Counted from the first letter of the stretch, positions 5,613 through 60,470 are shown. The stretch: 64,000 bases of DNA from an uncultured Gammaproteobacteria bacterium (GCA_964588165.1 CAZPMS010000004.1:32019-96018); one strand, 5' to 3'. The notes: generated by a model from the letters alone, not told the origin. Numbers and translations: made by a program.

Positions 5613-6500
5613 ATGTATTCTCAAATTGACTCTAACAAAAGAAAAACTTGGTTACTGATGATTATTTTTTTTGTAGTGATTGTTGGCCTTGGTTGGATTT
5701 TTTCTGAAGCTTACAATTTTGGCTACAATGGGGTGGCTATTGCCGTATTTATTGCCATAGTTATGAATCTATTCAGTTACTTTAAAGGTGATAAGGTGGC
5801 CTTGGCAATGGCTGGTGCAAAGCAAATTAATAAAGAGGCTAACCCTTATGTTTACCGGATGGTAGAAAATCTTTGTATTACTGCTGGCGTGCCAACGCCT
5901 AAAGTTTATATAATGAACGATCCCAATATTAATGCTTTTGCCACCGGCCGAAAGCCGGAACTTGCTTCTGTAGCTGTTACTACCGGTGCTATTGATAAAT
6001 TGGAGAATGAAGAATTGGAAGGCGTAATTGCCCACGAGTTAGCTCATGTTAAAAACTACGATATTAGGCTGATGATGATTGTAATTATTTGCGTAGGCAT
6101 AATTACTTTAATGGCCGACTTCTTTTTAAGAGCCCAATTCATATTTGGCGGCAAAAGAAACAGTCGTGAAGGCGGTAATTTAGGGGCAATCTTGATGATT
6201 GCAGGAATTGCTTTAGCTATTCTTTCCCCTATTTTTGCCAGCCTAATTCAATTGGCAGTTTCCAGAAAAAGAGAATATTTAGCTGATGCTTCCGGAGCTT
6301 TATTAACCAGGTACCCGGAAGGCCTGGCCAGGGCCCTGGAAAAAATTAAAAATAATAATCAACCTACTAAAAAGGCCAATCATGCCACAGCACATTTATT
6401 TATTGCCAGCCCTTTTAAACCGGCTTCCAAAATGGCTGGTTTATTTTCTACCCATCCGCCAGTTGATGAGAGAATTGCCAAACTTAGAAAGATGGCATAG
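5613..6500 (+). CDS. htpX: HtpX-type M48 zinc metalloprotease
   Basis: HEXXH motif (IAHELAHVKNYD), multiple TM segments, C-terminal STHPPVDERI. LemA-HtpX neighbourhood is typical. Confidence 0.85.
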   Translation: MYSQIDSNKRKTWLLMIIFFVVIVGLGWIFSEAYNFGYNGVAIAVFIAIVMNLFSYFKGDKVALAMAGAKQINKEANPYVYRMVENLCITAGVPTPKVYIMNDPNINAFATGRKPELASVAVTTGAIDKLENEELEGVIAHELAHVKNYDIRLMMIVIICVGIITLMADFFLRAQFIFGGKRNSREGGNLGAILMIAGIALAILSPIFASLIQLAVSRKREYLADASGALLTRYPEGLARALEKIKNNNQPTKKANHATAHLFIASPFKPASKMAGLFSTHPPVDERIAKLRKMA

Positions 6501-6511
6501 CAGGAAAAAAA

Positions 6512-6626
6512 CGACGAACCATAAAGGTTCGTCTGCGGGATGTGATAATCAGTCATCTCCAAAACAAAGCTTATACAATCCTCCCCTGTCTCCGTAACAG
6601 AACCTTTATGGTTCGTCTACGGGAAT
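6512..6626. repeat. Pair of inverted, self-palindromic ~28-bp hairpin elements (GACGAACC-ATAAA-GGTTCGTC / GAACC-TTTAT-GGTTCGTC) flanking a 56-bp spacer
   Basis: Read directly from sequence at 6512-6541 and 6598-6626. Sits between the htpX stop and the clpC promoter. Possible bidirectional terminator or small RNA. Confidence 0.4.
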
Positions 6627-6740
6627 ATATTTGATTTTAAACTGATTCGCTTTTACAAAATATATTTTAATATAAAACGAAGCAGAGGAATTTATCCTCT
6701 GCTTTATAAATAAAAACGATGGACCGTGCCCTAAAATGAG

Positions 6741-13712: not shown

Positions 13713-15779
13713 ATGATTTTATTAGATACTCCTGTAGAAAATCTTTCCAGAATAGGTAAAACCGTAGCCTCCAGGCTTAAACGTCTGGGTGTTTTTAATA
13801 CTTTTGATTTAATTCATTATTTCCCTTTTAGATATGATGACTTTTCTAATTTAAAAAATATAGCTGATCTAAAGCCGGGCGACATTACAACCGTAAGAGG
13901 TAAAATTGAACTTTTAACCAATAAACGCTCCCCTAGAAAAAAAATGGTAATTACAGAATGCTTTTTAACAGATGAAACAGGTTCCATAAAAGCTATTTGG
14001 TTTAGGCAGCCTTATATTGCTAAAACTTTAAAAAATGGCGATGAAGTTTATTTTTCCGGAAAAGTAATGGGCGATTTGTTTTCATTAACCTTCCAAAATC
14101 CTTCTTATGAAAAAGTTGCAACTGAAACTACCCATACGGCCAGGCTGGTGCCTATTTATCCTTTAACCAGCGGCTTAACCCAAAAACAGTTAAGGTTTTT
14201 AACTAAGCAATCGATGGCTATTATTGATAAGATAGAAGATATTTTACCGGCCAGTTTTAAAACAAAATACCAATTATCCGATCTAACTACGGCCTTAAAA
14301 ACAATTCATTTTCCGGAAAATAAAGCTGAAATAGAAACAGCCACCAGGCGTCTAAAATTTAATGAGCTTTTAGGGTTCCATTTGCAAAATTATTTATTAA
14401 AAAAAGATGCCGAGTCCAGTGTGGCTAAAGCTTTAAAGTTTAAGGAAGAGGAAACCAAAAAAATTGTCAGCAACTTAGGATTTATATTAACTGGCGCCCA
14501 AAAAAAGTCAGCCTGGCAAATCCTGCAGGATATGGAAAAAACTAAGCCAATGAACCGCCTGTTGGAAGGCGACGTTGGTTCGGGCAAAACTGTAGTGGCA
14601 GCCCTAGCCATTGCTTCTGCTACTTTAAATAAAAAACAGACTGCCCTGCTGGCACCTACAGAAATTTTAGCCAGCCAGCATTTTAAAACCCTGCAGGAAT
14701 TATTAAAACCAATTAACTGCACTATTGGCCTATTTACTAAAAACAAACACTTTACTTATAATACTGCCGATAAAAAAACTTCAAAACTTACTAAAGCCAA
14801 GTTGGCTAAATTAATTGATGCCGCAGAAATTAATCTGGTGGTGGGCACCCACGCTATGTTAGAAGAAAAAATTGACTTTAAAAATTTAGAATTGGTAATT
14901 ATTGATGAGCAGCACCGCTTTGGCGTAGAACAAAGGAAGGCCTTGCGGGAAAAATCAGGCGATTCTAAAACTACGCCTCATCTGCTTTCTATGACAGCAA
15001 CGCCAATCCCCCGCACTTTGGCTTTAACTATTTATGGTGATTTAAATTTATCCATTATTGATGAACTGCCGCCCGGCAGAAAAAAACCTATTACTAAATT
15101 AATAGAGCCCCTGCAAAGAGACAAAGCCTATGAATTTATTTTGGAAAAAATTAATGAAGGCAGGCAGGCTTTTGTAATCTGCCCGTTAATAGAAGAATCT
15201 GATAAGCTGGGGGTAAAATCTGCCACCGAAGAATATAATAAGCTCTCCGAAAAAATCTTTCCACAGCTTAAAATTGGCTTGCTCCACGGCAGGTTAAAGC
15301 CCAAAGAAAAAGAGGAGGTAATGAATAAATTTACTGAAGGGGAAATTAATATTTTAGTGGCAACCTCTTTAATAGAAGTAGGAGTTAACGTACCCAACGC
15401 CAGTGTAATGGTTATTGAATCGGCCGAAAGGTTTGGCCTTTCACAATTGCATCAGTTTAGAGGCAGGGTTAACCGGGCCGGCTTCCAAGCTTACTGTTTA
15501 TTATTTTCTGATTCCAACACCAAAAAATCTGTAGATAGGCTAAAAACTTTAGTTAACTGCTTTGACGGTTTTAAACTGGCTGAAGAAGATTTAAAGCTTA
15601 GAGGTTCCGGCAGTTTTACCGGTACGGCCCAATCTGGCTTTTTAGCCCAATTTAGAATGGCTACTTTTGCTGATGCAAAATTAATTGCCGAAACCAAAGA
15701 AGCCCTGGAGGAACTAATTAAAGACAATCCCGAAGTTATTGATAAATTCAATATAAAAACCAACATTCATCCTGAATAA
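13713..15779 (+). CDS. recG: ATP-dependent DNA helicase RecG
   Basis: Wedge/OB N-domain. Helicase motifs GDVGSGKTVVA, DEQHRFGV, TATPIPRTL and QLHQFRGRVNR. Confidence 0.9.
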   Translation: MILLDTPVENLSRIGKTVASRLKRLGVFNTFDLIHYFPFRYDDFSNLKNIADLKPGDITTVRGKIELLTNKRSPRKKMVITECFLTDETGSIKAIWFRQPYIAKTLKNGDEVYFSGKVMGDLFSLTFQNPSYEKVATETTHTARLVPIYPLTSGLTQKQLRFLTKQSMAIIDKIEDILPASFKTKYQLSDLTTALKTIHFPENKAEIETATRRLKFNELLGFHLQNYLLKKDAESSVAKALKFKEEETKKIVSNLGFILTGAQKKSAWQILQDMEKTKPMNRLLEGDVGSGKTVVAALAIASATLNKKQTALLAPTEILASQHFKTLQELLKPINCTIGLFTKNKHFTYNTADKKTSKLTKAKLAKLIDAAEINLVVGTHAMLEEKIDFKNLELVIIDEQHRFGVEQRKALREKSGDSKTTPHLLSMTATPIPRTLALTIYGDLNLSIIDELPPGRKKPITKLIEPLQRDKAYEFILEKINEGRQAFVICPLIEESDKLGVKSATEEYNKLSEKIFPQLKIGLLHGRLKPKEKEEVMNKFTEGEINILVATSLIEVGVNVPNASVMVIESAERFGLSQLHQFRGRVNRAGFQAYCLLFSDSNTKKSVDRLKTLVNCFDGFKLAEEDLKLRGSGSFTGTAQSGFLAQFRMATFADAKLIAETKEALEELIKDNPEVIDKFNIKTNIHPE

Positions 15780-15830
15780 TTAATTAATGATAAATCCGAA
15801 GATATCTGTAATTTGCTCGTATTATATCTA

Positions 15831-15970
15831 AAAAGCCTACCCCTTTTGTCATCCCGACCGAACCCGCCGATTCGGCGGGGAAGCGAAGGGATCCCGTAAT
15901 ATCTAGTACGTGCTAATTTGCAACGGGATTTCTCGGCGGAGCTCGAAATGACAGGTTAAGGTAGGCTTTT
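15831..15970. repeat. Palindromic intergenic element, copy A (~140 bp)
   Basis: Outer inverted repeat AAAAGCCTACC/GGTAGGCTTTT. Inner arms tgtcatcccgaccgaacccgccgattcggcggggaagcgaagggatcccg ... cgggatttctcggcggagctcgaaatgacag. Confidence 0.6.
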
Positions 15971-15976
15971 GTTAGC

Positions 15977-16005
15977 TTGACAAATCCATTTTTTATGTAT
16001 ATAAT
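15977..16005 (+). promoter_or_regulatory. Consensus sigma70 promoter (TTGACA, 17-bp spacer, TATAAT)
   Basis: ttgaca at 15977-15982 and tataat at 16000-16005. Confidence 0.55.
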
Positions 16006-16012
16006 ATTTGGT

Positions 16013-16198
16013 ATTGATGAGGATAGGCTGAAGTTTACACGCAAGGCAACAGAAGTCTACACCCGACAAAATGGGCTTCCAAACTTGCACGTAAATAACT
16101 GGGTTGGACTGAACCCTCGTCCCAGTTGCCTATCCTCTAACTTTAACCACCACGTTCTTTAAATAGATACAAAACAACTTCAAAAAAAGGGAGGGTTT
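16013..16198 (+). ncRNA. Candidate structured 5' leader or small RNA (~185 nt) of a GC-rich cassette, unclassified
   Basis: A 10-bp long-range helix (GAGGATAGGC at 16019-16028 pairs with GCCTATCCTC at 16128-16137) encloses nested hairpins, e.g. AACTGGG...CCCAGTT. Lies downstream of a consensus promoter and upstream of a strong RBS (AGGGAGG). Confidence 0.35.
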
Positions 16199-16282
16199 AT
16201 GCCACGTGCTTCACCCTAAGTTTTCTTCATTTTTCTTGGTTGAGTATTCAACTCATCTTTACCTAAAACCGAGGGTTCAAAT

Positions 16283-16622
16283 GGACGAAAACGTTGCGCA
16301 ATCTCCCCCAAGAGTGGAGACAGGCAGTCTACCTCACTTTACGAGTATTCAAGAAGTTGAGGATGAATATCCAGGGTTCCAAAAAACCGAAGTTGATATC
16401 TTCGGATCATTCACGCCAACTAAGGCTGAGCAGGTACCGCTACAAGGTCAAAGTGCTCAAATCATTGGCTTTGAACTGAACGGAAGCCTCGCTGGCACAA
16501 CAGTCTTTGCATCTTTTGGCTGTCAAAGTGCACATGACAGCCATAAAATTCATGTGTTAACGATGCAAAACTTCCGCAACAGCGGCGAAATTGCTCGGGA
16601 GCTTGAATTGGTTCAGGCTTAG
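16283..16622 (+). CDS. Hypothetical protein in a GC-rich (~47%) cassette. The ORF track starts at 16206; ATG 16283 has a GAGGG RBS.
   Basis: MDENVAQSPPRVETGS... No recognisable domain. Bracketed by a promoter and a terminator. Confidence 0.4.
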
Positions 16623-16642
16623 CAATGAAGTATGAACTCAAA

Positions 16643-16679
16643 AACCGGTTTGCAATATGCAAGCCGGTCTTCTTTTTGC
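16643..16679 (+). terminator. Rho-independent terminator (ACCGGTTTGCA-ATA-TGCAAGCCGGT plus CTTCTTTTT), possibly bidirectional
   Basis: Read directly. It sits between the cassette ORF and the stop of the convergent gene 16688..17707. Confidence 0.6.
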
Positions 16680-16687
16680 TAAATTAT

Positions 16688-17707
16688 TTAATTGCCACAA
16701 TATGAATTAACCTTTTTATATTCTTCAAAATCACCATTAGGAAAAGGTTCAACTATATCTAAACCATTTTCTATTACACAATAAGATTCAGATTCATTGT
16801 CTTGTGCACAAGAGCTGCCTATGTGCCGGCTTGATCCATCTTGAGTATCAGCTATATAAACATTGCCACAGTCAAATTTTTCATCACTTAAAATATTCCT
16901 AACAATGAATTCCTCATCCGCCCATTTTGGATCAGTATTTCCTAAAGTTGTTAATCTTAGATTGCCTTTACAGCTATGGCTACTAAAGCCATCTTTTATG
17001 CAAACTTTATCAGGAGATTCACACCTAGTAAAAACGCAGCCTCGCTCATCATCTAAAGCACTTATATTTAAATTAAAACTGAAACCGCAATTACCATAAA
17101 AATCTTTTGCATTCGCTGCTTCAAACTTAGCCAAAGAGCAATATTTTACCTCGGTTATGCTAGCTTTTTCTACAATAGGTATAGCCAATTTAAAATCCAC
17201 CAATTGTGGATTAATAGTATAAAGAATAACATAAGACCCTAAAGCCAACATTAGGCCCATTATGGCCCCAAATATCGTTTCTTTGGCTGCATTAATTTTA
17301 TCCGGGCTGCCGCCGGAAAACAGCCAAATAAAACCGCCTATGGCTATCATTAAAACGGCTATAATGCCGGCTATGCCCACAAAAAATTTATACAAGGCCG
17401 CAATATATTCTCCTGCTAAATTACCGCTTATATAATTACCTTCATTATCGGTGGTATCAATGGTTAAGGTTTCGCCCCGTTTAAAAATTGACCCCGGAAT
17501 GGTTAAATTGGGCGTAAATTCTGCGGGTTGATTAGAATCAGTGCCAAAAATACTATCCAAAAGCGGTTTAGCAGAAACTTCCTGCAAATTTAAAAAAGAA
17601 AATGACAAGCCAAAAATAACAACTATAAGGATTAAAGAGATAATATACTTTCTTTTTCCGCCAAAGGCGGATCCGCCTTTGGCGGACATATTTTTTGTAT
17701 CATTCAT
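16688..17707 (-). CDS. TrbC/VirB2-like pilin-domain membrane protein with a Cys-rich C-terminal extracellular domain
   Basis: TM1 at residues 22-40. Hydrophobic pair FFVGIAGIIAVLMIAIGGFIWLFSGGSPDKINAAKETIFGAIMGLMLALGSYVILYTI resembles the TrbC/VirB2 core. The C-terminal 170 aa carry about 10 Cys. Confidence 0.45.
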   Translation of the reverse strand: MNDTKNMSAKGGSAFGGKRKYIISLILIVVIFGLSFSFLNLQEVSAKPLLDSIFGTDSNQPAEFTPNLTIPGSIFKRGETLTIDTTDNEGNYISGNLAGEYIAALYKFFVGIAGIIAVLMIAIGGFIWLFSGGSPDKINAAKETIFGAIMGLMLALGSYVILYTINPQLVDFKLAIPIVEKASITEVKYCSLAKFEAANAKDFYGNCGFSFNLNISALDDERGCVFTRCESPDKVCIKDGFSSHSCKGNLRLTTLGNTDPKWADEEFIVRNILSDEKFDCGNVYIADTQDGSSRHIGSSCAQDNESESYCVIENGLDIVEPFPNGDFEEYKKVNSYCGN

Positions 17708-27710: not shown

Positions 27711-27852
27711 AAAAAGCTTTACTACTACTTGTCATCTCGACCGAACCCGCCGATTCGGCGGGGAAGCGGAGAGATCCCGCTAATTTAGCACGTACTATTG
27801 ATTATGGGATCCTTCGGCAGGCTCAGGATGACAGTTGAATAAAGCTTTTTCC
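27711..27852. repeat. Palindromic intergenic element, copy B. The left arm is near-identical to copy A; the central loop is inverted relative to A.
   Basis: Outer inverted repeat AAAAAGCTTTA/TAAAGCTTTTT. Arms tgtcatctcgaccgaacccgccgattcggcggggaagcggagagatcccg ... gggatccttcggcaggctcaggatgacag. Confidence 0.6.
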
Positions 27853-27915
27853 CTAGCATTAGCCAAAAAATGATTGAGCCTTGGCCTGAAGTGGCGCGAA
27901 GCGTCTACTTCAGGC

Positions 27916-27944
27916 TTGACTTTTTTACCAAAGTATGCTATGAT
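27916..27944 (+). promoter_or_regulatory. Sigma70-like promoter (TTGACT, 17-bp spacer, TATGAT) for a GC-rich cassette, preceded by GC-rich hairpin GCCTGAAGT...ACTTCAGGC
   Basis: ttgact at 27916-27921 and tatgat at 27939-27944. GGAG RBS 7 nt before ATG 28019. Confidence 0.55.
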
Positions 27945-28018
27945 TATATATTAAATTGAACCTTGATTTTGTTAAAAACATAAGCAAAAAGCTGTAAAAA
28001 CCTGAACTGGAGAACAAG

Positions 28019-28735
28019 ATGAAGAGAGTCAACGTTATTGACTGCAGGCATTACCAGTATATGAATCCCAATGGTCTCGCTCCAGATACCGCCAGGACCA
28101 TCAAGAAACTCTACCAATTGCCCACTGAACAGGGCGCGTGGGAAGCAGTAACCATGGCAAATCTGCTGACTGAGGTGGGTACCATCCCCGCTATCATCGG
28201 ACATTCGCCGCAGCGTCGTGGCAAGGGCATGGCCGAACTGGTCAAACTCCAGGCCGGCTGGGCAACGAAAATGGTGGAATGCGACCGTGGTTTGAACGAC
28301 CTGGGCAGTGATCTAAACGCCCAGGAACTGATTCCGAAAATCGTCGCCTTCTCCCAGGAGAACAGCTGTTCGGTGGAAGAAGCTGTACTGCTCCTTCCAG
28401 AGGCACGCGAATACATCTTCGAGCGGAATCATGATCGTGTCAGGGACATTCAATACCTCTGCGGCCTGGTCAATGCCGGCGATACCGTATTCATGTCCAG
28501 CCACGGCGGTTCCATAGAGCCCACGGTTCTAAGGCTCCTGCTTCTGCAGCAGGAAACTCCGCTGATTGATCAAACAGCAAACATGCTCAATGTCGAAAAC
28601 CTGAGTAACTTCGGCGGCATGCTGGGGACCGGTGAAGCCTTCACCTACACCCTGATCTTGGATGACGATGGCAACATTGTTGCCGCCGAAAACATCCATT
28701 CCATCCGCCTGCCGGATTATCCACTCGCGAAGTAG
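28019..28735 (+). CDS. Foreign (~55% GC) gene. Possible histidine-phosphatase-superfamily (SixA/PGM-like) protein.
   Basis: Strong compositional contrast with flanks. Motifs CRHYQYMNPNG (RH...N) and SSHGGSIEPTVLRLL resemble the RHG and SHGG motifs of PF00300. Own promoter and terminator. The functional call is tentative. Confidence 0.55.
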   Translation: MKRVNVIDCRHYQYMNPNGLAPDTARTIKKLYQLPTEQGAWEAVTMANLLTEVGTIPAIIGHSPQRRGKGMAELVKLQAGWATKMVECDRGLNDLGSDLNAQELIPKIVAFSQENSCSVEEAVLLLPEAREYIFERNHDRVRDIQYLCGLVNAGDTVFMSSHGGSIEPTVLRLLLLQQETPLIDQTANMLNVENLSNFGGMLGTGEAFTYTLILDDDGNIVAAENIHSIRLPDYPLAK

Positions 28736-30094: not shown

Positions 30095-31636
30095 TCAAAT
30101 CTTACGCACTTCTCCATTACTGGCATCAACCTGTACCCTGTCGCCATCTTTTAAAATTTCAGTGGCCACCTTAGTACCTATAATACAAGGAATTTTTAAT
30201 TCCCGGCTGACAATAGCCGCATGGCAAGTTATTCCGCCTAAATCAGTAACAATGGCTCCGGCCTTTTTCATGGCCGGCACTAAATCCGGGTTGGTCATAG
30301 TAGAAACTAAAATATCACCCTTATTCATTTTTTTAAGATCCCGAGTTGTGTTTATAATTCTGACTGTGCCTTCGGCTTTACCTAAACTAGCAGTTTGACC
30401 ATGAAAATAATTCATTTCAGTTAAATCTTCTTTTCGCAGTAAATAATGCTTCATGGAATCAAATATCTTATTAGTAAATACTTTACCCGGTAATTTACCC
30501 TCTACTACTACAAATAAACAACCCTTCATCCTTTTGTGTAAATCAGCCGGCCTATCCAGTTTTCCATCCAGCATTAATTTAACTTCTGGCAATAAACAGT
30601 TTCTTAATTCGTTAACAGACATGCTTAAACGGATAGATATTTCTTTTAGAAGCGGTTCTAGTTCATAGTATGACTGAACCAAACTCATTTTCCGATAATC
30701 TTTAGAATAAATAAACCCTTGAGTTACCTCTAATAACTTTTCATGTTTTTTATCAATTTTTAAATTATTAAGTAATTGATCGTGAATCTTTTTGGACTCT
30801 CTTTTTTCTTGCTGAATTTTTTTTATTTTATCCAAAGGTTTATTATTATCAGATACATCTTTTTTCAACTTCCGCCAAAAATAACTATCTGGAAAAGCCG
30901 GGCCTTCAAAATTATAGCCCATGTATTTATATTTTTTGATATGAGTTTCGACCAGCTTGATAATCTCTTTAGATAAATCTTTTTTCGGCCAAGGGCCGAC
31001 CAGCCTCTGGCTGGTACTCTTAATTTTTGAAGTAATTTTTAATAAGGCAATTTCTTCTTCCTGAACTTTAGAAAGCTTTTCTGGGATAGTTAAAAGAGCA
31101 AAACATTCTTTAGCAGTTTTATTATATTTAGTCTTTCTAACTTGCTTATTTAAATAATTAACTAGATAAGAAGTTAAATGAGGTTTGTATAAATCCATAT
31201 AAACCGGTGAAAGAGATGGATTATAAACTTTACTTTGCCAAACCAAATATTTTTTATAAAGTTGATGCAGTTCTTTATTGGATTTCTTTTTTAAATTTAC
31301 TTTAAAAATATTTTTTGAACTAAACTCAATTAAACCGTCAGAATTTTTTAAAATAATTTTGTTTAAACTAATGCCCCATTGTGGATTTTTTACAACTTTA
31401 TTCAAACCAAATTGACCAAGCTTGGTCCATTCATCATGGTCTACAAAAATTAAACCACTATCTTTCCTGTGCAAACAAATAACATTTTTTTGATACTTGC
31501 CTAAATAATCTCCGGTTCCTTTAATGGCCCCGCACCAGCCAGGATACATTATTGGATATAAAGAAATCGGCTGATTAGGCTCTAGGACCCCCCATTTATA
31601 TTTTTTTAAATTTTGGATTGAGTAAATGTCTTTCAT
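30095..31636 (-). CDS. RPH/YvkC-like phosphotransferase module: variable N-domain plus C-terminal PEP-utilizer phosphohistidine swivel domain (paralog 8 of 8)
   Basis: C-terminus GDILVSTMTNPDLVPAMKKAGAIVTDLGGITCHAAIVSRELKIPCIIGTKVATEILKDGDRVQVDA. No ATP-grasp and no PEP-utilizers_C TIM barrel. Confidence 0.75.
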   Translation of the reverse strand: MKDIYSIQNLKKYKWGVLEPNQPISLYPIMYPGWCGAIKGTGDYLGKYQKNVICLHRKDSGLIFVDHDEWTKLGQFGLNKVVKNPQWGISLNKIILKNSDGLIEFSSKNIFKVNLKKKSNKELHQLYKKYLVWQSKVYNPSLSPVYMDLYKPHLTSYLVNYLNKQVRKTKYNKTAKECFALLTIPEKLSKVQEEEIALLKITSKIKSTSQRLVGPWPKKDLSKEIIKLVETHIKKYKYMGYNFEGPAFPDSYFWRKLKKDVSDNNKPLDKIKKIQQEKRESKKIHDQLLNNLKIDKKHEKLLEVTQGFIYSKDYRKMSLVQSYYELEPLLKEISIRLSMSVNELRNCLLPEVKLMLDGKLDRPADLHKRMKGCLFVVVEGKLPGKVFTNKIFDSMKHYLLRKEDLTEMNYFHGQTASLGKAEGTVRIINTTRDLKKMNKGDILVSTMTNPDLVPAMKKAGAIVTDLGGITCHAAIVSRELKIPCIIGTKVATEILKDGDRVQVDASNGEVRKI

Positions 31637-31716
31637 ATTATACTAATTACTAATCTGTACTAATATACGAATTTGAAAAATTATTAGTATATTAGTAACA
31701 ATTCGTAAATTTGTAA
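31637..31716. promoter_or_regulatory. Inverted pair of the shared motif (tactaatatacgaat / attcgtaaat...tatattagtaac) directly upstream of a paralog sub-operon
   Basis: ctgtactaatatacgaatttg (reverse copy) and ttagtatattagtaacaattcgtaaat (forward copy) within 80 bp. Confidence 0.4.
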
Positions 31717-33234
31717 TTATATTTTTTTAACAATACCTTTTGTGGCGTCAATCTGAACTTTTTGGCCGTCTTTTAAAATTTTAGTGGCAAATCTAGTGCC
31801 AATCACACAAGGAATACTTAGCTCTCGGCTTACAATAGCAGCATGGCAGGTTACTCCGCCTTCATCAGTAACCACTGCGGCTGACTTTTTCATTAACGGT
31901 ACCATATTAGGATTAGTGGCATATGATACTAAAATATCACCAGCTTTAAATTTTGCGTAATCTTCTTTACTATTAATAACTTTAACAATGCCTTTAGCTT
32001 GGCCCTTACAAGCGCACTGCCCTTGAAGCTTTTTTAAACCCTTGGGTACCTTGTGGGCTTTAATATTTTTATTGAATTCTTTAGCTGCTTTACCTGTTAC
32101 TAATCTAATATTACCTTTGACGTTTATATAAAAACAGCGTTTTATTCTTTCGTTAACTTCATTTATATCAACTTCTTTCCTGCCGATTAATATTTCTACG
32201 ATTTCGTCTTTATGTAAATAATGCCCTTGTTTGACTGTTAAACCAAATCTTCTGCCAAATTCTTTAAGTAAAAACTCATAAGCATAATAACTATAATATT
32301 CAATGTCTTTCCTGTAGGCTTTTTGGAATCCAAACTGTCTAACCACCCAAAACATCCATTTGTGTTTTTCATCAACCTTAAGTTGTTTTAACAAATTGTT
32401 CTGTTTTTTCTCTAAAGTTTCTGCTTTCTTTTTTATTTTTACTAATTCTTGATGAGGATCATTTTTAACCCAATCTTTAATAGATGAAACAAAATATTCC
32501 AAATCTAAGAGTGGTCCTTCAAAACCAAAATTAATCCAATTGTATTTTTTTTCGTGAAGTTTGATCTTCTGTAAAAAATATTTATCTTTTTGATCAAGCT
32601 GTTTTATAATTTCTCGAGCTGACTTTTTGAAGATAGTTGAAAGTTTTTGCGACTTCTTAACTTCTATTGCCAACTTTAAAATATTTTCTCTCTCTTTAGC
32701 AGTTATAGTTTTTCTTTTATCCGAAGATAAAATCTGAAAAATTTCTACTAAAGTATATTTTTTGGGAATTGTCAAAGTATTTAAATATTCAGTTAATGAG
32801 TTGGTCCATAAAGGAGTACCGTATTCAGTATAACTAAAAGGAACGCTCCAAGTACTCATCTCATAAAAATAATAATAGAACTTTTCAAACTTCTTAGCTA
32901 ATTGCTTATCGGTTAAAATCGATAAGTCTTCTTTGACGATTTTTTTATTATACTCATGGAATTCATGGATAACATCGCTAACGTTCTTTAATACTTTCTT
33001 TGTTATTTTTTGATCATTGCAAAACATTTTGAAAAAATAAGCAGCTATAGAATTATAAGATTCCAAAACATAGCCTTGCCGGAGGCGCCCATTTGCAAGG
33101 CCAACTGACTGATGATTGGAACCCTTACCAAATTCCCTCACAAAACCGTCATAATTAGCATCAAAATGAAACCCAAACGGAAACAAATTTGCTCCATAAT
33201 TTTCGTTAATTAAAAACCAATTCACTTTTTTCAT
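31717..33234 (-). CDS. RPH/YvkC-like phosphotransferase module (paralog 7): variable N-domain plus His swivel domain
   Basis: C-terminus GDILVSYATNPNMVPLMKKSAAVVTDEGGVTCHAAIVSRELSIPCVIGTRFATKILKDGQKVQIDA. Confidence 0.75.
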   Translation of the reverse strand: MKKVNWFLINENYGANLFPFGFHFDANYDGFVREFGKGSNHQSVGLANGRLRQGYVLESYNSIAAYFFKMFCNDQKITKKVLKNVSDVIHEFHEYNKKIVKEDLSILTDKQLAKKFEKFYYYFYEMSTWSVPFSYTEYGTPLWTNSLTEYLNTLTIPKKYTLVEIFQILSSDKRKTITAKERENILKLAIEVKKSQKLSTIFKKSAREIIKQLDQKDKYFLQKIKLHEKKYNWINFGFEGPLLDLEYFVSSIKDWVKNDPHQELVKIKKKAETLEKKQNNLLKQLKVDEKHKWMFWVVRQFGFQKAYRKDIEYYSYYAYEFLLKEFGRRFGLTVKQGHYLHKDEIVEILIGRKEVDINEVNERIKRCFYINVKGNIRLVTGKAAKEFNKNIKAHKVPKGLKKLQGQCACKGQAKGIVKVINSKEDYAKFKAGDILVSYATNPNMVPLMKKSAAVVTDEGGVTCHAAIVSRELSIPCVIGTRFATKILKDGQKVQIDATKGIVKKI

Positions 33235-33235
33235 A

Positions 33236-34843
33236 TTAGACTTTTTTTACTATCCCCTTAGTGGCGTCCACTTCAACAAGGTCGCCATCTTTTAAAACTT
33301 GGGTGGCAACTTTAGTGCCAATTAAACAGGGTATGCTAAGTTCTCTGGCAACAATAGCTGCATGCGAAGTAACACCGCCTTGTTCAGTAACAATAGCCGC
33401 TGCCTTTTTCATGGCAGTCACAATATCCGGATCAGTGGCAATGGAAACCAAAATATCGCCCTTTTTCATCTTAGACATATCCTTTGGCCTAATAATAATT
33501 TTTACTTTGCCCTTAGCCTTGCCCACACAACCGGTTTGGCCCTGGATTTCCGTTATATCCGAAAGGTCTTTCTGTTTTATTTGCGAAGCCAGCTTTTTAG
33601 CCTGCTTTCCCACAAAGACTTTTTCAAAATCTTTCTCTACATAAAAAACGCAAAACTTGGTTCGCTCTTTAAGATTTTGGCGATTGATTTTATTACTAAG
33701 CAAAGCCTGCTTAATTTCACCAATAATCATGAACCTAATTTGCTTTAAAGTGATGTTTAACCTCTTGGCAATTTCTTTAAGAATCGGCTGCATCCTATAG
33801 ATGGCATAAATTTGGGCATACCTACGATAAATTTTAGTTACCATAAAATCGCCCCAATTATTGAATAAAGTAAGCCAAGCTCCTTTAATGCTAAGTTTTT
33901 TTATAAGTTTTTGACGGTCTGCTAAAATCTTCTTCTGCTCGGCCTGCATATTAGCAAGCATTTTTTCAGCATTTTGCTCCCGACCAACAAACTTAACCAG
34001 CTCCTTTAAATAATAATCAAAACTATTAACGCCTTCTTTGCCGGTCCACAAAAATTTTACGTAAAAATATTTTTCATAATACTTTTGAATAGCCTTTAAT
34101 ATTGAAAGGTGGACTTTACCCCTAATCCCGTTAACTTTACTTTCTAAAAGGTTCTCGTACTCGGGCGTATGGGTGGCTAAACCGTATTTAGCTGCGTTCT
34201 GCTCTTCAAACAGATTGTATAAATTTTTGAATAATTTTTTATGATATTTGTCTTCTTGAATCCTGGCAGCAATTTTTAAAAACTCTTCTTGTTCAATTTG
34301 AATTAAAGATTTTTTCCGAGGATGGGTTAATAAAACCAAATACTCATTTACTTTATCTTCAGTTACATCTATGCCTCGTAAAAATTGTTTAGCCCGCAGA
34401 GTTAAATTATTATGGAACATATCAACAGCTACCGGCAGCCAGCCCCATTGGTAATATTTTGTATGGATCTCATCATGTTTTTTATAATGTTCCCAAAGTT
34501 CTTTTTTAGAAAGTTTATGCAAATTATCTTCCGGCAGTTTTTCGGCAAACGATCTTAACCTATCTGAATATTCTACAATTCTTTTATTGGTTAGGGTAGC
34601 AAACTCCGGCTGGTTAACGTATTTTTTTACCAAATGGCCGCCAACTTCCTTGGAATCTTTCTCGCCATAATAAAACCAAAGGTGATACCCTTTAAATAAA
34701 GTAAGTATTTTTTTATAAGCCTTGCCGCTTGGACTTTTAAACTCGTTAACAAAGCAAGAAAGCCAAATCTGAGCAAAAAATAAATCCATATCAGGAATAT
34801 CTTCTCCTAAATACCAAGGGTCTTTATTATTTAGATGTTTCAT
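33236..34843 (-). CDS. RPH/YvkC-like phosphotransferase module (paralog 6)
   Basis: C-terminus GDILVSIATDPDIVTAMKKAAAIVTEQGGVTSHAAIVARELSIPCLIGTKVATQVLKDGDLVEVDA. Confidence 0.75.
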   Translation of the reverse strand: MKHLNNKDPWYLGEDIPDMDLFFAQIWLSCFVNEFKSPSGKAYKKILTLFKGYHLWFYYGEKDSKEVGGHLVKKYVNQPEFATLTNKRIVEYSDRLRSFAEKLPEDNLHKLSKKELWEHYKKHDEIHTKYYQWGWLPVAVDMFHNNLTLRAKQFLRGIDVTEDKVNEYLVLLTHPRKKSLIQIEQEEFLKIAARIQEDKYHKKLFKNLYNLFEEQNAAKYGLATHTPEYENLLESKVNGIRGKVHLSILKAIQKYYEKYFYVKFLWTGKEGVNSFDYYLKELVKFVGREQNAEKMLANMQAEQKKILADRQKLIKKLSIKGAWLTLFNNWGDFMVTKIYRRYAQIYAIYRMQPILKEIAKRLNITLKQIRFMIIGEIKQALLSNKINRQNLKERTKFCVFYVEKDFEKVFVGKQAKKLASQIKQKDLSDITEIQGQTGCVGKAKGKVKIIIRPKDMSKMKKGDILVSIATDPDIVTAMKKAAAIVTEQGGVTSHAAIVARELSIPCLIGTKVATQVLKDGDLVEVDATKGIVKKV

Positions 34844-34956
34844 ATAACTACTAATTTACAAATAAATACTAATATACAAATATGTGATTCAATTATTAAG
34901 TATATTGGATTTGTATATTAGTACAGATTGGTAATTCGTAATAATTTAATTCGTAG
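34844..34956. promoter_or_regulatory. Shared intergenic inverted-repeat motif (tactaatatacaaat ... tttgtatattagtacagattggtaattcgtaat)
   Basis: Sequence words shared with 24789-24901, 31637-31716 and 40565-40803. Confidence 0.4.
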
Positions 34957-36015
34957 TCATATTTTCTTTATTATACCATTGGCAGCATCAACTTCTACCG
35001 TATCACCGTCTTTTAAAATTTTAGTTGCAATTTTTGTGCCTATAATACAAGGTTTTTTTAATTCCCGAGCCACAATAGCTGCATGCGATAAAATACCGCC
35101 GGAATCAGTAACAAATGCTGAAGCTTTCTTCATTAAAGAAAGAAACTCCGGACGAGTCATGCCGGAAACCAACACATCGCCAGTATTAAATTTTTTAACT
35201 TTGTTTGGATCATGCACTACACGAACCACACCTTTAACCTTTCCAGAGTAAGCTGTCATACCGCGTAGTGTATTGGTAATATTTACCTCAGCCAAAACCT
35301 TTACTAAAGATTCGGCTTTATGTTCATTATATATGCTAAATCGGTTTTTATCACAATATATACCAAAAAGTTTATCACGTTTTTTTAAAAGATCTCTGGA
35401 AGGTAATTTCCCGGTTCGAAAATAATTTATCATTTCATCTTTAATACAACAAAGCACCAACTGGGTAGATATTTTTTCATTTTTTCCAATTTTTTTAGCC
35501 ATTTTTTCCATAAACTGCTCGGTCAAAGTCAATACATCCTCAGCGTACAGCCTTGCTTCCTCAAACTTGCGAAACGATTTCTTAAGTTGATCAGAGGTAA
35601 GCCCATCTACTATATACTTAACATTAATATGTGGTTGATAATATTTAACAAGTTTATTCCAAAAAATATTATACAGTTTTTCGGTAAGCGTGACGTTTTT
35701 ATGCTTTACCATAAACTCACGCAATTCATCAGCTTGACGTTTTAGACTTAAACAAATGATTTTTACTTGCCGATGGTTGCCTTTAATTTCTTCTGCCAAA
35801 TGCTTACATATTGCCTCACGGTCTTTTTGCCTAGCCCAACCCTCGCTCTTGCCATTTCGTATAATAATGATGCTCTCGGGCAAAAATGGCCTACCATTAA
35901 ATTTAATTAACCGTGAATATTGCTCAGCAAAATGGCTGCAAGAAAGTATGCTCCAACTACCGGCCCAAATTTGAAGCCAATCAGGTCTTTGTAATAATTG
36001 AGGAGAGATATACAT
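34957..36015 (-). CDS. RPH/YvkC-like phosphotransferase module (paralog 5), shortened. Its N-domain is ~180 aa shorter, consistent with an internal deletion.
   Basis: 352 aa versus 480-535 aa for the sibling paralogs. Retains the QIW N-terminal motif and an intact swivel domain GDVLVSGMTRPEFLSLMKKASAFVTDSGGILSHAAIVARELKKPCIIGTKIATKILKDGDTVEVDA. Confidence 0.7.
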   Translation of the reverse strand: MYISPQLLQRPDWLQIWAGSWSILSCSHFAEQYSRLIKFNGRPFLPESIIIIRNGKSEGWARQKDREAICKHLAEEIKGNHRQVKIICLSLKRQADELREFMVKHKNVTLTEKLYNIFWNKLVKYYQPHINVKYIVDGLTSDQLKKSFRKFEEARLYAEDVLTLTEQFMEKMAKKIGKNEKISTQLVLCCIKDEMINYFRTGKLPSRDLLKKRDKLFGIYCDKNRFSIYNEHKAESLVKVLAEVNITNTLRGMTAYSGKVKGVVRVVHDPNKVKKFNTGDVLVSGMTRPEFLSLMKKASAFVTDSGGILSHAAIVARELKKPCIIGTKIATKILKDGDTVEVDAANGIIKKI

Positions 36016-36020
36016 AAAGA

Positions 36021-37568
36021 TTATATTTTTTTAATTATTCCCTGAGTGGAGTTAACTTCTACCGTATCACCGTCTTTTAATACTTTATCACAATCTGCTA
36101 CCCCAACCACGCAGGGCACCTGCATTTCTCTGGCCACAATAGCCGTGTGGCAGGTTAAACCGCCGGCACCGCCAATTAAAGCTTTGGCCTTTTTCATGGC
36201 TGGAACTAAATTAGGATTAGTGTTATGGGCCACCATAATATCACCCTTATTCATTTTATCCATATCTTTTGGCACATTGACGATTTTGACAATGCCCTTT
36301 ACTTTTCCGGGGTAAGCGCAGGTACCTTTTAGTTCACTGGTATTATTGGTTATTTTTTTAATTAATATTTTTTTATAAAATTCATTTGCTGCCGAACCTG
36401 AATAGGTTTTATTATAAACTTTGCCGTTTTTACGATACCAATAATCGGCCACAAACCTTTGCCTTTTGTTTAATTCATCCTGATTAATCCGACCGGTTTT
36501 TAGAGCTTGGGTAATTTCCCAAGGTTTTAGCGCCCATACTTGATTTAGGGATAAATGCATTCTTTTAGCAACTTCTTTAAAAACTATTTCGTAATAATAC
36601 ATACTGTTATAAAGAGCATTCTTGCGGTAATCTTTAATAAATACCATTTCCTGGGCCATTTTAATTAAATCTTTTTCATATTGTGTAAAATTCAATTCTT
36701 TTAGCATTTTATTTTGCCGGCTGATCAGTTGTTGCCGCCTTTTAGCAATTTCATTTAAAAGTTTGGTGGGGCTCTGGCCTTCCCTAAAAAATGCCTGCCA
36801 TCTGCCAATGTATTCTACAAGTTCATAAGCTGGCCCGCGGTACTGGAAGGTAAACGAAGTATAAGCATGGTAATGGTTGATAATCTTTTTTGAAATCACC
36901 TGATCTAAATTCTTAATATTATCTGTTAGGTCATCTAAATCAGAATGGATGAAAGTTTCTTTAAGTTTTCTTTTGTTATTTATTAACTTAGCTATCTGTA
37001 AAAAGCTCTCTTCCTCTTTTTCTAAAAAACTTTTTTTATGAGGAGAAGTTAAAACCGGAAAAACTTCAGAAATATTTTTTTTAATCATTGATTTCTTTAA
37101 TTTAGGCTCAATAATTTTAATTATGCCTTTAGTAACCAGTTCCCTTCCTTGGTCGGCATGCCAGGAAAGCGAAGCTCCAATCCCGTGGCTAAATTGGTGA
37201 TGTTTATATATTTTATTAAGAAGTTTTACAATCTGGCCATTGTTTAACTTATTTAAAGCAAGTTTTTTTATAGCTTTAGATTCTTTTAAAAATCGAGTGG
37301 AGACATCCTCTACTTCTTTTAAAATCTTTAGGGCCCAAGCTGGATCTTTAAACATTTTGGCTGACAAAAATTCAGCCTGCTTATCAAACTCTTTAGCAAT
37401 ATAAATCATGTTGCTAAAATCACCCTTATAGTAGGTAATATATTTGTTAAATTCTTTACCCAGACCTTTTTCGGGCCAGTCTTCAAAAAAACTTTTCATG
37501 GGAAAGCCCATCATAAATAAAGTATTTTCTGGAATGTCTTCAACTATTTTCCAAATTTCTTTACTCAT
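36021..37568 (-). CDS. RPH/YvkC-like phosphotransferase module (paralog 4)
   Basis: C-terminus GDIMVAHNTNPNLVPAMKKAKALIGGAGGLTCHTAIVAREMQVPCVVGVADCDKVLKDGDTVEVNS. Confidence 0.75.
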   Translation of the reverse strand: MSKEIWKIVEDIPENTLFMMGFPMKSFFEDWPEKGLGKEFNKYITYYKGDFSNMIYIAKEFDKQAEFLSAKMFKDPAWALKILKEVEDVSTRFLKESKAIKKLALNKLNNGQIVKLLNKIYKHHQFSHGIGASLSWHADQGRELVTKGIIKIIEPKLKKSMIKKNISEVFPVLTSPHKKSFLEKEEESFLQIAKLINNKRKLKETFIHSDLDDLTDNIKNLDQVISKKIINHYHAYTSFTFQYRGPAYELVEYIGRWQAFFREGQSPTKLLNEIAKRRQQLISRQNKMLKELNFTQYEKDLIKMAQEMVFIKDYRKNALYNSMYYYEIVFKEVAKRMHLSLNQVWALKPWEITQALKTGRINQDELNKRQRFVADYWYRKNGKVYNKTYSGSAANEFYKKILIKKITNNTSELKGTCAYPGKVKGIVKIVNVPKDMDKMNKGDIMVAHNTNPNLVPAMKKAKALIGGAGGLTCHTAIVAREMQVPCVVGVADCDKVLKDGDTVEVNSTQGIIKKI

Positions 37569-37616
37569 ATTTTTTTATTATATTTTTTTTGTCCTGCTGT
37601 TCGGGACTTCGCGAGG

Positions 37617-40564: not shown

Positions 40565-40803
40565 ACACTACTAATTTACAAATTTTTTACTAATATACTA
40601 ATCTACGAATGTACAAATAATTACCAATATACGAATTTGATGCTTTTAAATATAAATGATAATTTTCGTATATTCGTTATAAACTTCATACAGAATACCA
40701 ATAATCTTATAACTTAATTTAGGATAAATTAAATCGCTTTTCATAATTTTTTAATTAATTATTATATTTTATTTGTATATTCGTACAAATTAGTAATTCG
40801 TAG
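40565..40803. promoter_or_regulatory. Long intergenic region with reverse and forward copies of the shared motif (ttactaatatactaatctacgaatgtac ... ttatttgtatattcgtacaaattagtaattcgtag), separated by ~130 bp of AT-rich spacer
   Basis: Sequence words shared with the other three motif regions. Confidence 0.4.
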
Positions 40804-60458: not shown

Positions 60459-60470
60459 AGTATAAATTAT

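What the first reader, a model, noticed from the sequence alone, without database searches (positions are those of the whole stretch)
15977..16680. GC-rich mini-cassette with consensus promoter, ~185-nt structured leader RNA, unknown ORF and terminator
Immediately right of palindromic element copy A there is a perfect TTGACA-17-TATAAT promoter. It is followed by a ~185-nt region with a 10-bp long-range helix (GAGGATAGGC...GCCTATCCTC) enclosing nested hairpins. Next come a strong AGGGAGG RBS with a 6-codon mini-ORF (MPRASP*), an unknown 113-138-aa ORF (~47% GC versus 33% background) and a clean intrinsic terminator. The leader does not match the 5S, SRP, tmRNA, RNase P or common riboswitch consensus motifs that I can recognise. 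The cassette could be a novel cis-regulatory RNA (riboswitch or protein-binding leader, with the mini-ORF suggesting attenuation). It could also be a small RNA plus an acquired gene of unknown function.
Basis: seen in the sequence. Interest (0 to 1): 0.6.

Follow-up and report, generated by a model that had tools for sequence, protein, structure and literature searches.

The report
New translation-control leader RNA in CPR
The flagged stretch is a real, conserved gene unit of a small group of ultra-small (CPR) bacteria, in which a previously undescribed folded RNA at the start of the message carries a loop that can pair with and hide the ribosome-binding site of a fast-evolving small protein of unknown function.

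Summary
The main reading, a novel cis-regulatory leader RNA, is supported and can now be described more precisely.

- **Conservation.** The same unit follows recG in at least five related Komeilibacteria-like species: consensus promoter, 5' folded RNA, small ORF, terminator.
- **Structure.** The 119-nt domain (16019-16137) is a three-way junction. Each orthologue folds into it on its own (z -3.7 to -7.1). The helices differ in sequence but keep pairing: 23 of 36 pairs have double changes, 0/500 shuffles reach this, and slid controls give 30-50% paired against 91%.
- **Family.** No Rfam family matches it in any species.
- **Main new finding.** The loop of the third helix is perfectly complementary (8-12 nt) to the Shine-Dalgarno region of the main ORF, 100-190 nt downstream. 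This holds in four species with covarying sequences, in H-type pseudoknot geometry.
- **Mini-ORF.** Three lineages have a 3-6-codon mini-ORF with a near-perfect SD. Its stop codon abuts a second helix that masks the main start site.
- **Natural deletion.** One species has lost the domain cleanly but kept the promoter, linker and ORF.
- **ORF.** The 113-aa ORF is a real but very fast-evolving orphan family with no hit in any library.

It is not an acquired cassette, not a transcription attenuator, and not a member of any described riboswitch family. What triggers the switch is unknown.

The parts
15977..16005 (+). Sigma-70-type promoter TTGACA-17-TATAAT. The predicted transcription start is near 16012.
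   Evidence: It is a 12/12 match. The -35 TTGACA is invariant and the -10 is TATAAT, TATAGT, TATATT or TAACTT at the same position in L180, L181, L182, L185, L187 and L189. The start site is inferred, not measured.
16019..16137 (+). Three-way-junction RNA domain. P1 is 16019-16028 with 16128-16137. The P2 arm is 16033-16096. The P3 arm is 16097-16127.
   Evidence: MFE is -45.1 kcal/mol with z -5.2. Five species fold independently into the same architecture. Covariation supports it. There is no Rfam hit. No reading frame is conserved across it. G-U pairs occur only when it is read on the + strand.
16110..16119 (+). Anti-SD segment UGAACCCUCG, at the 3' end of the P3 loop (loop 16104-16120).
   Evidence: It is a perfect 10-nt complement of 16270-16279, P = 0.0003 against shuffled loops. 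Equivalent matches of 12, 8 and 8 nt exist in L180/L181, L182 and L185, with compensatory changes.
16138..16187 (+). Unstructured A/U-rich linker containing the conserved CTTTAAATAGAT (16157-16168).
   Evidence: It is conserved in L182, L185 and L187, and partly in L180 and L189. It does not pair significantly with either start site.
16188..16219 (+). Strong SD AGGGAGGG (16188-16195) and the 6-codon mini-ORF MPRASP* (16199-16219).
   Evidence: Read from the sequence. Counterparts are AAGGAGG + MRGP* in L180/L181 and TAGGAGG + MLN* in L189. L182, L185 and L187 have none.
16220..16242 (+). 5' arm of the start-site-masking helix. It begins directly after the mini-ORF stop codon.
   Evidence: It pairs with 16266-16293 at dG -20.6 kcal/mol, P = 0.002 against shuffles. 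The same arrangement with unrelated sequences is found in L180 (P 0.0015) and L189 (P 0.007).
16266..16293 (+). Translation-initiation region of the main ORF: SD GAGGG 16271-16275 and AUG 16281. It is the target of both the P3 loop and the post-mini-ORF arm.
   Evidence: P(unpaired SD) is 0.03 in the ensemble fold.
16281..16622 (+). 113-aa orphan protein gene.
   Evidence: The open run is longer than in 98.5% of shuffles (P = 0.015). The in-frame codon score is +0.23 bit/codon, against negative values in the other frames. GC1/2/3 is 0.59/0.40/0.40. Orthologues of 92-113 aa lie at the same locus. dN/dS is 0.24-0.32, and 1.46 for one close pair. No family was found in Pfam, PHROGs, PADLOC, NCBIfam or PDB.
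16644..16678 (+). Intrinsic terminator: an 11-bp stem followed by a T-run.
   Evidence: Equivalent terminators follow the ORF in every orthologue.
15830..15965 (.). Palindromic repeat element ('copy A'). It is a neighbour, not part of the unit.
   Evidence: Other copies are at 27729-27860 and 60465-60522. It is absent between recG and the promoter in L180, L182 and L187. A related element sits at that spot in L189. It is therefore an independent insertion.

Best explanation
This is a vertically inherited, lineage-specific transcription unit of Komeilibacteria-like CPR bacteria. A new kind of leader RNA in it controls translation of a fast-evolving small protein.

Proposed mechanism:
1. A consensus promoter starts the mRNA about 6 nt before a 110-135-nt three-way-junction domain.
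2. The domain is a rigid scaffold. The loop of its third helix (P3) carries an anti-Shine-Dalgarno sequence next to the 3' strand of that helix.
3. This loop pairs with the SD of the main ORF, 100-190 nt downstream, as a long-range H-type pseudoknot. That keeps the main ORF off.
4. In three lineages, including the window, a mini-ORF of 3-6 codons with a near-perfect SD lies in between. Its stop codon abuts the 5' arm of a second helix that covers the main SD and AUG.
5. Ribosomes terminating on the mini-ORF melt that second helix and couple main-ORF translation to mini-ORF translation.

Shown: conservation of the unit, the fold with covariation, the loop-SD complementarity with covariation, the post-stop/start-site helices, coding selection on the ORF, and a natural clean deletion of the domain.

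Inferred: the transcription start, that the pseudoknot forms and represses, and that mini-ORF translation activates.

Unknown: what relieves the pseudoknot (a protein, a ligand, an RNA or temperature).
For: - **Same unit in relatives.** It lies after recG in L180/L181, L182, L185 and L189, and without the domain in L187.
- **Independent folds.** Each orthologue folds into the same junction, z -3.7 to -7.1.
- **Model recovery.** A covariance model built from four sequences finds L185 (E 2e-7) and L189 (E 0.017). It finds nothing in 724 kb of distant recG neighbourhoods.
- **Covariation.** 90.9% of cells are paired, against 73% in shuffles (0/500). 23 of 36 pairs have double changes. Slid controls give 30-50%. 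In a manual structural alignment 25 of 37 columns are compensatory, and RNAalifold recovers the structure.
- **Loop-SD complementarity.** The matches are 10, 12, 8 and 8 nt and always fall on the main SD, with P 0.0003, <0.0003, 0.009 and 0.03. There are two double compensatory changes between L182 and L185. The P2 loop, used as a control, shows nothing consistent.
- **Post-stop helices.** dG is -20.6, -18.1 and -16.1 kcal/mol, with P 0.002, 0.0015 and 0.007.
- **No terminator in the leader**.
- **Domain is dispensable.** L187 deletes exactly the domain and keeps an intact ORF with dN/dS 0.25-0.32.
Against: - There are no expression or probing data. The transcription start and all pairings are predictions.
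- L189 has the domain but no significant loop-SD match, so the pseudoknot is not universal in the family.
- Only five species, forming three to four independent lineages, are available. The covariance-model alignment leans towards the model structure, and column homology in the manual alignment is uncertain.
- In silico, P1 is so stable that blocking it does not change SD accessibility. No switching mechanism is visible.
- In the window the loop-SD pairing and the post-stop helix compete for the same SD, so their interplay is unclear.
- In the closest known analogue (IncI-alpha/IncB Rep control) the pseudoknot activates translation, so the sign of the effect could be the opposite.
Confidence: 0.6

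Rival explanations
1. Riboswitch. The three-way junction is an aptamer for a small molecule, and the loop-SD pseudoknot is its expression platform. Ligand binding would stabilise or release the pseudoknot.
For: The closing P1, the two arms and an SD-containing pseudoknot resemble SD-sequestering riboswitches. The structure is under selection. A few unpaired nucleotides are invariant: ACAG in the P2 internal loop, and the GC/GC pairs.
Against: The junction strands are short and not conserved: UGAA, ACA, G, G and GC. The distribution is very narrow. The regulated gene is an orphan with no metabolic context. One species dispenses with the domain. No Rfam riboswitch hit appears even at E <= 10.
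Confidence: 0.12
2. Protein-binding operator. The encoded small protein, or another protein, binds the junction and sets pseudoknot formation, as in feedback loops of the ribosomal-protein-leader type.
For: RNA and ORF are always linked and both evolve fast. The fold model of the protein is a low-confidence alpha-beta-beta-beta-alpha arrangement. The narrow distribution is typical of protein-binding leaders.
Against: No RNA-binding domain was detected. L187 keeps the protein without the RNA. There is no direct evidence.
Confidence: 0.2
3. A purely structural 5' stabiliser. The junction only protects the mRNA 5' end from exonucleolytic decay, and the loop-SD match has no function.
For: The domain starts about 5-7 nt from the predicted 5' end in all species. 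It is very stable. It is dispensable in L187.
Against: A simple hairpin would be enough for protection. The loop-SD complement is maintained by compensatory changes in three lineages and always targets the SD.
Confidence: 0.12
4. The pseudoknot activates translation, as in IncI-alpha/IncB repZ/repA control. Mini-ORF translation would open the masking helix, and the P3 loop would then capture the start region and promote initiation.
For: The same three parts are present: an upstream hairpin loop, a leader ORF, and an inhibitory helix over the start site. In the window the two pairings compete for the same nucleotides.
Against: Here the SD core itself (GAGGG) is inside the pairing, which should block 16S binding. 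L182 and L185 have the pairing but no mini-ORF. No antisense promoter was seen on the minus strand.
Confidence: 0.12
5. A trans-acting small RNA processed from the 5' UTR, or a decaying mobile element (MITE) whose terminal inverted repeat is P1.
For: The domain is a discrete module bounded by an inverted repeat, and it is present or absent as a unit. An A/U-rich linker could be an RNase site.
Against: There is a single copy in 64 kb and none in the other loci. Compensatory evolution occurs in all helices, with G-U pairs only on the + strand. On the RecG tree the domain is ancestral and was lost once. No terminator follows the domain.
Confidence: 0.07

Closest known systems
Replication-control leaders of IncI-alpha/IncB plasmids: ColIb-P9 repY-repZ and pMU720 repB-repA (from my own knowledge, not tested here)
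   Same: The loop of an upstream hairpin pairs with a sequence at the ribosome-binding site about 100 nt downstream, forming a long-range pseudoknot. A short leader ORF lies in between, and its translation opens an inhibitory structure over the start site.
   Different: There the pseudoknot activates translation and an antisense RNA attacks the loop, and the gene is a Rep protein on a plasmid. Here the unit is chromosomal and the SD core itself is paired. No antisense promoter was found. The hairpin is part of a three-way junction. There is no sequence relation.
hok/mok/sok-type toxin mRNAs, and the Min Jou long-distance interaction of phage MS2 (own knowledge)
   Same: Translation of the main gene is blocked by long-range intramolecular pairing and depends on translation of an upstream reading frame that melts this pairing.
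   Different: Hok toxins are about 50-aa hydrophobic peptides with an antisense RNA, and MS2 is a phage polycistron. The protein here is 92-113 aa and not hydrophobic. It has no PADLOC or Pfam match.
SD-sequestering pseudoknot riboswitches (SAM-II, preQ1-II, SAM-V) and long-range pseudoknot operators such as the E. coli L20 operator upstream of rpmI (own knowledge)
   Same: The Shine-Dalgarno sequence is one strand of a pseudoknot whose stability sets translation.
   Different: Those are compact or bind a known ligand or protein, and they are in Rfam. This RNA matches none of 4227 Rfam models, and its effector is unknown.
5'-terminal mRNA stabilisers: ompA 5' UTR, B. subtilis aprE leader, cryIIIA STAB-SD (own knowledge)
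   Same: A stable structure sits within a few nucleotides of the 5' end of a strongly transcribed mRNA.
   Different: Stabilisers need no specific loop sequence. Here the loop co-evolves with the SD.

Membership tests
Any described RNA family (Rfam 15: 5S, tmRNA, SRP, RNase P, 6S, riboswitches, ribozymes, large ncRNAs) | A covariance-model score at or above the family's gathering threshold. | tested here: not met
   There was no hit at gathering threshold in the window. At E <= 10 on 15700-16800 the only notable hit was alpha_tmRNA at 21 bits against a threshold of 50, aligned to unpaired promoter-like flanks. No hit fell on the leader in five orthologous loci. ARAGORN found no tmRNA.
Riboswitch (as a class) | A conserved ligand-binding core, with invariant junction or internal-loop nucleotides across diverse members. 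| tested here: inconclusive
   The junction strands vary in length and sequence. Only ACAG and a GC/GC step are invariant among five species. There are too few sequences to judge.
Riboswitch (as a class) | Direct, selective binding of a small molecule that changes the fold. | not testable with these tools
   This needs in-line probing or ITC.
Riboswitch (as a class) | Association with genes of a coherent metabolic or transport function. | tested here: not met
   The only associated gene is an orphan with no family in Pfam, NCBIfam, PHROGs, PADLOC or PDB.
Transcription attenuator with leader peptide | A terminator hairpin plus U-run between the leader ORF and the gene, with an alternative antiterminator. 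| tested here: not met
   There is no terminator-like site on the + strand between 16012 and 16281. The post-stop segment pairs with the start site instead.
Leader-ORF translational coupling by unmasking (erm, secM-secA, mok-hok, MS2 type) | An upstream short ORF whose translated or terminating ribosome overlaps one arm of a helix that sequesters the downstream SD/AUG. | tested here: met
   The arm begins 0-4 nt after the stop codon in the window, L180 and L189. dG is -16 to -21 kcal/mol and P is 0.0015-0.007. The functional effect was not tested.
IncI-alpha/IncB-type pseudoknot control | A hairpin loop complementary to a sequence at the RBS about 100 nt downstream. | tested here: met
   Perfect matches of 8-12 nt occur in four species, with covariation.
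IncI-alpha/IncB-type pseudoknot control | An antisense RNA gene opposite the hairpin, and a downstream Rep gene. | tested here: not met
   There is no minus-strand promoter-like site in 16000-16300. The protein has no Rep or any other domain. The locus is chromosomal, next to recG.
MITE / selfish palindromic element | Many dispersed copies, and terminal inverted repeats that decay neutrally. | tested here: not met
   There is one copy in the window and none in 0.86 Mb of other loci. All helices are maintained by compensatory changes.
Protein-coding gene (for the 113-aa ORF) | A reading frame conserved in orthologues with dN/dS below 1 and a codon-position signal. | tested here: met
   Orthologous ORFs of 92-113 aa exist. 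dN/dS is 0.24-0.32 for three pairs, but 1.46 for L182/L185. The frame-specific codon score and GC1 excess are present.

The most novel reading that the evidence does not exclude
The junction plus long-range pseudoknot is a new class of sensor RNA: a riboswitch or factor-responsive switch peculiar to CPR bacteria. It would gate a potentially harmful, rapidly diversifying small protein, making the unit a chromosomal toxin-like, effector or defence module under two-layer translational control of the hok/mok or Rep type. The two masking devices on one start site, the consensus promoter, and dN/dS above 1 between close relatives would all fit a protein that must be made abundantly but only on a signal.
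Probability: 0.15. Interest if true: 0.75.

Novelty: new member of a known kind. Interest (0 to 1): 0.5.

Why it matters
As far as I know, few regulatory RNAs have been described in CPR/Patescibacteria; two literature searches turned up nothing relevant. This locus gives a covariation-supported RNA fold that is absent from Rfam. It comes with a concrete, testable mechanism: an anti-SD loop on a three-way-junction scaffold, combined with mini-ORF-coupled unmasking. It also comes with a natural deletion control. It defines a new orphan protein family whose tight translational control and fast evolution suggest a role in conflict or host interaction. The distribution is narrow (one small clade) and no effector is known, so the immediate impact is that of one new cis-regulatory motif rather than a new principle.

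Tried and rejected
- **Known RNAs.** tmRNA, 5S, SRP, RNase P and hammerhead were all rejected. Rfam and ARAGORN were negative. The alpha_tmRNA hit is a promoter-like flank match. A hand check for the hammerhead core (CUGANGA...GAAA) and for 5S loop motifs failed.
- **Phage origin.** blastn against 50,697 phage records found nothing. Two 16-mer scans of viral contigs gave only chance matches with no extended similarity.
- **Protein homology for the window ORF alone.** It found only itself among 5.8 billion proteins. HMMER against 1.8 billion representatives hit only repeat proteins, which I consider spurious.
- **Relation to other window proteins.** There is none to the window's 2,818-aa protein or to the other GC-rich orphan.
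- **Structure prediction.** AlphaFold gave pLDDT 46 with a single sequence and 53 with a 5-sequence alignment. The Foldseek PDB search had nothing at E <= 0.001.
- **Same-species contigs.** They are 99.9-100% identical, so they give no covariation.
- **RecG-based scans.** Scans of GTDB genomes and JGI metagenomes returned only relatives at or below 56% identity, without the motif. The useful relatives came from the protein search.
- **Other pairings.** Linker-to-start-site pairing and P2-loop complementarity were not significant.
- **Switching in silico.** Blocking P1 does not change SD accessibility.
- **Literature.** Searches on CPR structured RNAs returned nothing relevant.

Full report
**1. 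What is in the window**

The region lies between recG (13713-15779, +) and a convergent T4SS-pilin-like gene (16688-17707, -).

- a perfect TTGACA-17-TATAAT promoter at 15977-16005, the only 12/12 site in 15-18 kb;
- a 10-bp helix, 16019-16028 with 16128-16137, enclosing two hairpin arms;
- AGGGAGGG followed by the mini-ORF MPRASP* at 16199-16219;
- an ORF at 16281-16622 (113 aa; 138 aa if counted from the GTG at 16206);
- a terminator at 16644-16668.

GC is 46.5% for the ORF and 49.6% for the domain, against 35.6% for the window.

**2. Is it more than chance?**

P1 alone is not. About 52 perfect inverted repeats of 10 bp or more within 200 nt occur in the window, and shuffled sequence gives 23-40 10-mer pairs.

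The 120-nt domain as a whole has z = -5.2, with 0 of 1000 dinucleotide shuffles folding as well. It ranks third of 799 windows on the + strand (the grid was phased on the element, which favours it).

The ORF is also unlikely to be accidental:
- its open run is longer than in 98.5% of shuffles;
- only the annotated frame has a positive codon score, +0.23 bit/codon, which is low for this genome;
- GC1 exceeds GC2 and GC3.

**3. Known families**

- No Rfam family matches at gathering threshold.
- At E <= 10 the only notable hit is alpha_tmRNA at 21 bits (threshold 50). It aligns to unpaired promoter-like flank columns and is spurious.
- ARAGORN finds no tmRNA.
- The protein matches nothing in Pfam or PHROGs.
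- It matches only itself among 5.8 billion proteins.
- Against 1.8 billion HMMER representatives it hits only repeat proteins.

**4. Finding relatives**

Nineteen contigs carry the identical protein and are 99.9-100% identical in DNA, so they are uninformative. RecG-based scans of GTDB genomes and JGI metagenomes reached only relatives at 56% identity or less.

A protein search with RecG found closer relatives at 65-74% identity, named Komeilibacteria or Patescibacteria by their sources. Their contigs show the following.

| Locus | RecG identity | What follows recG |
|---|---|---|
| L180/L181 | 74% | promoter, folded leader, mini-ORF MRGP*, 113-aa ORF, terminator |
| L182 | 70% | promoter, leader, 103-aa ORF, terminator |
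| L185 | recG cut by the contig end; found through the ORF profile | promoter, leader, 105-aa ORF, terminator |
| L189 | 65% (sister clade) | promoter, leader, mini-ORF MLN*, 92-aa ORF, terminator |
| L187 | 68% | promoter, linker and 96-aa ORF, but the folded domain is cleanly missing |
| L183, L184, L188 | 67-68% | convergent radA directly; no cassette |

A RecG tree places all cassette-bearing loci in one clade plus its sister. The unit is therefore inherited vertically, and the domain was lost once. It is not a recent acquisition.

Related genomes have 43-48% GC, and the cassette has 45-56% GC in all of them. The window genome has become AT-rich while the cassette has not.

The palindromic element at 15830-15965 is absent from this spot in L180, L182 and L187. 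It is an independent insertion. A related element sits at the same spot in L189.

**5. The RNA fold is conserved**

- Each of the five species' leaders, folded alone, gives the same architecture: closing helix P1, a long arm P2 with two internal loops, and a short arm P3. The z-scores are -3.7 to -7.1.
- A covariance model built from the window, L180, L181 and L182 recovers L185 (E 2e-7) and L189 (E 0.017), which were not used to build it.
- The model finds nothing in 724 kb of distant recG neighbourhoods.
- On the model-based alignment, 90.9% of cells are paired, against 73% in shuffles (0/500). 23 of 36 pairs show changes on both sides. Sliding the partners by 1-3 columns drops pairing to 30-50%.
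- A manual structure-guided alignment gives 25 of 37 compensatory columns, and RNAalifold recovers the same structure. Its pairing rate is high by construction, and column homology between helices of different length is uncertain.
- There are at least 13 G-U cells and only one C-A cell, so the + strand is the folded strand.
- No reading frame is open across the domain in the orthologues.
- None of the orthologous leaders hits Rfam.

**6. The loop of P3 is an anti-SD**

A scan for perfect 10-mers showed that 16110-16119 (UGAACCCUCG, in the P3 loop) is the exact complement of 16270-16279 (CGAGGGUUCA). That is the SD of the main ORF, 1 nt before its AUG.

I then tested this systematically. For each species I took the longest perfect complement between the P3 loop and everything from the end of P1 to AUG+20. 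In four species it falls on the main SD.

| Species | Match length | P against shuffled loops |
|---|---|---|
| window | 10 nt | 0.0003 |
| L180/L181 | 12 nt | <0.0003 |
| L182 | 8 nt | 0.009 |
| L185 | 8 nt | 0.03 |
| L189 | no significant match | 0.43 |

- The paired sequences differ between lineages.
- L182 (UCGAACCC with GGGUUCGA) and L185 (CCCAACCC with GGGUUGGG) differ by two double compensatory changes, although their synonymous divergence is only about 0.1.
- The anti-SD always occupies the 3' end of the loop, 0-1 nt from the 3' strand of P3. That is the geometry of an H-type pseudoknot with coaxial stacking (read from the sequences; the inference is mine).
- The P2 loop, used as a control, has no consistent complement.

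**7. The mini-ORF**

The window, L180/L181 and L189 each have a near-perfect SD (AGGGAGG, AAGGAGG, TAGGAGG) followed by an ORF of 6, 4 or 3 codons. The peptides are unrelated.

In each, the 25 nt after the stop codon pair with the main SD/AUG region. dG is -20.6, -18.1 and -16.1 kcal/mol, with P 0.002, 0.0015 and 0.007 against shuffles. The helix sequences are unrelated between species.

A ribosome terminating on the mini-ORF would cover the 5' arm of this helix. No terminator lies in the leader. This is translational coupling by unmasking, not transcription attenuation.

The linker does not pair with either start site. L182, L185 and L187 lack both the mini-ORF and this helix.

**8. The protein**

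- Seven family members align at 16-31% identity to the window protein. Shared motifs include LPxY/F...EV near the N-terminus, a central NG, and a C-terminal helix.
- dN/dS is 0.24-0.32 for three pairs, and 1.46 for the closest pair, L182/L185. It is a real gene that evolves fast and may be diversifying.
- No match was found in Pfam, NCBIfam, PADLOC, PHROGs or PDB.
- The AlphaFold models are of low confidence (pLDDT 46 and 53), and Foldseek found nothing meaningful.

**9. Interpretation**

The best-supported reading is a cis-acting translational control leader. A three-way-junction scaffold presents an anti-SD loop that masks the main SD by a long-range pseudoknot. In three lineages this is combined with mini-ORF-coupled unmasking of a second helix.

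The clean loss of the domain in L187, with the ORF still under selection, shows that the domain is regulatory rather than essential.

Open questions:
- the sign of the pseudoknot's effect (in the IncI-alpha/IncB Rep systems, known to me from the literature, a similar pseudoknot activates);
- the signal that opens it;
- whether the junction binds a ligand or a protein.

In silico, blocking P1 does not alter SD accessibility, so no thermodynamic switch is evident.

**10. Verdict**

The interpretation as a novel cis-regulatory RNA is supported. 'Attenuation' and 'acquired gene' are not.

The RNA is a new family within a known kind of mechanism. It has a narrow distribution and an unknown effector, so interest is moderate.

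Noticed in passing
window 15830-15965, 27729-27860, 60465-60522 (-); L189 5590-5735: A family of ~130-nt palindromic (MITE-like) elements with a GC-rich inner hairpin (TGTCATCC...GGGATCCCG...ATGACA). One copy was inserted between recG and the cassette promoter in the window. A related one was inserted at the same spot in a sister species, so this spot appears to be an insertion hot spot.
   Followed up: partly
window 27917-28735: A second GC-rich ORF (28019-28735, 238 aa, 54% GC, GC3 0.64) with no Pfam family and atypical codon usage; its homologues were not searched. It is preceded by a near-consensus TTGACT-17-TATGAT promoter directly after palindromic copy B. The layout parallels the cassette studied here, but the proteins are unrelated.
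   Followed up: partly
window 6495-6640: The intergenic stretch with the strongest fold signal in the window (z -8.7 in the 120-nt scan). It contains two copies of a hairpin, GAACC(A/T)T(A/T)A(A/T)GGTTCGTCT(G/A)CGGGA. Its function is unknown.
   Followed up: partly
window 30095-42279: Eight tandem paralogous genes of about 350-535 aa on the minus strand share a 219-nt repeat at 63-73% identity, with a spacing of 1.1-1.7 kb.
   Followed up: no
L182 2924-3235 versus L185 628-945: The orphan ORF shows dN/dS 1.46 between these two close relatives (dS about 0.10). The apical loop of P2 in their leaders is almost entirely different, while the rest of the domain is nearly identical. These are local hypervariable spots.
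   Followed up: partly
window 16101-16123: GGGUU (16101-16105) can pair either with CCCAG... (the P3 helix) or with AACCC (16112-16116), which lies inside the anti-SD. The second pairing would hide the anti-SD within the domain. L182 has a similar alternative (CAGGG/CCCUG). Read from the sequence only.
   Followed up: no
window as a whole versus L180-L189: The window genome has 36% GC, while its closest relatives have 43-48%. This lineage has shifted strongly towards AT, which makes conserved structured or atypical regions stand out as 'GC-rich'.
   Followed up: partly
L034 1972-2307, L035 65-397: In Peribacteria and SR1 genomes, RNase P RNA (class A, just above the Rfam threshold) and a tRNA lie upstream of recG. 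The window has a tRNA-Arg upstream of recG but no detectable RNase P RNA.
   Followed up: no
window 17657-17686: A perfect 13-bp GC-rich palindromic hairpin (TCCGCCAAAGGCGGATCCGCCTTTGGCGGA) lies inside the 5' end of the pilin-like gene (16688-17707, minus strand), about 20 nt from its start codon; the scan lists it as a + strand terminator-like site.
   Followed up: no
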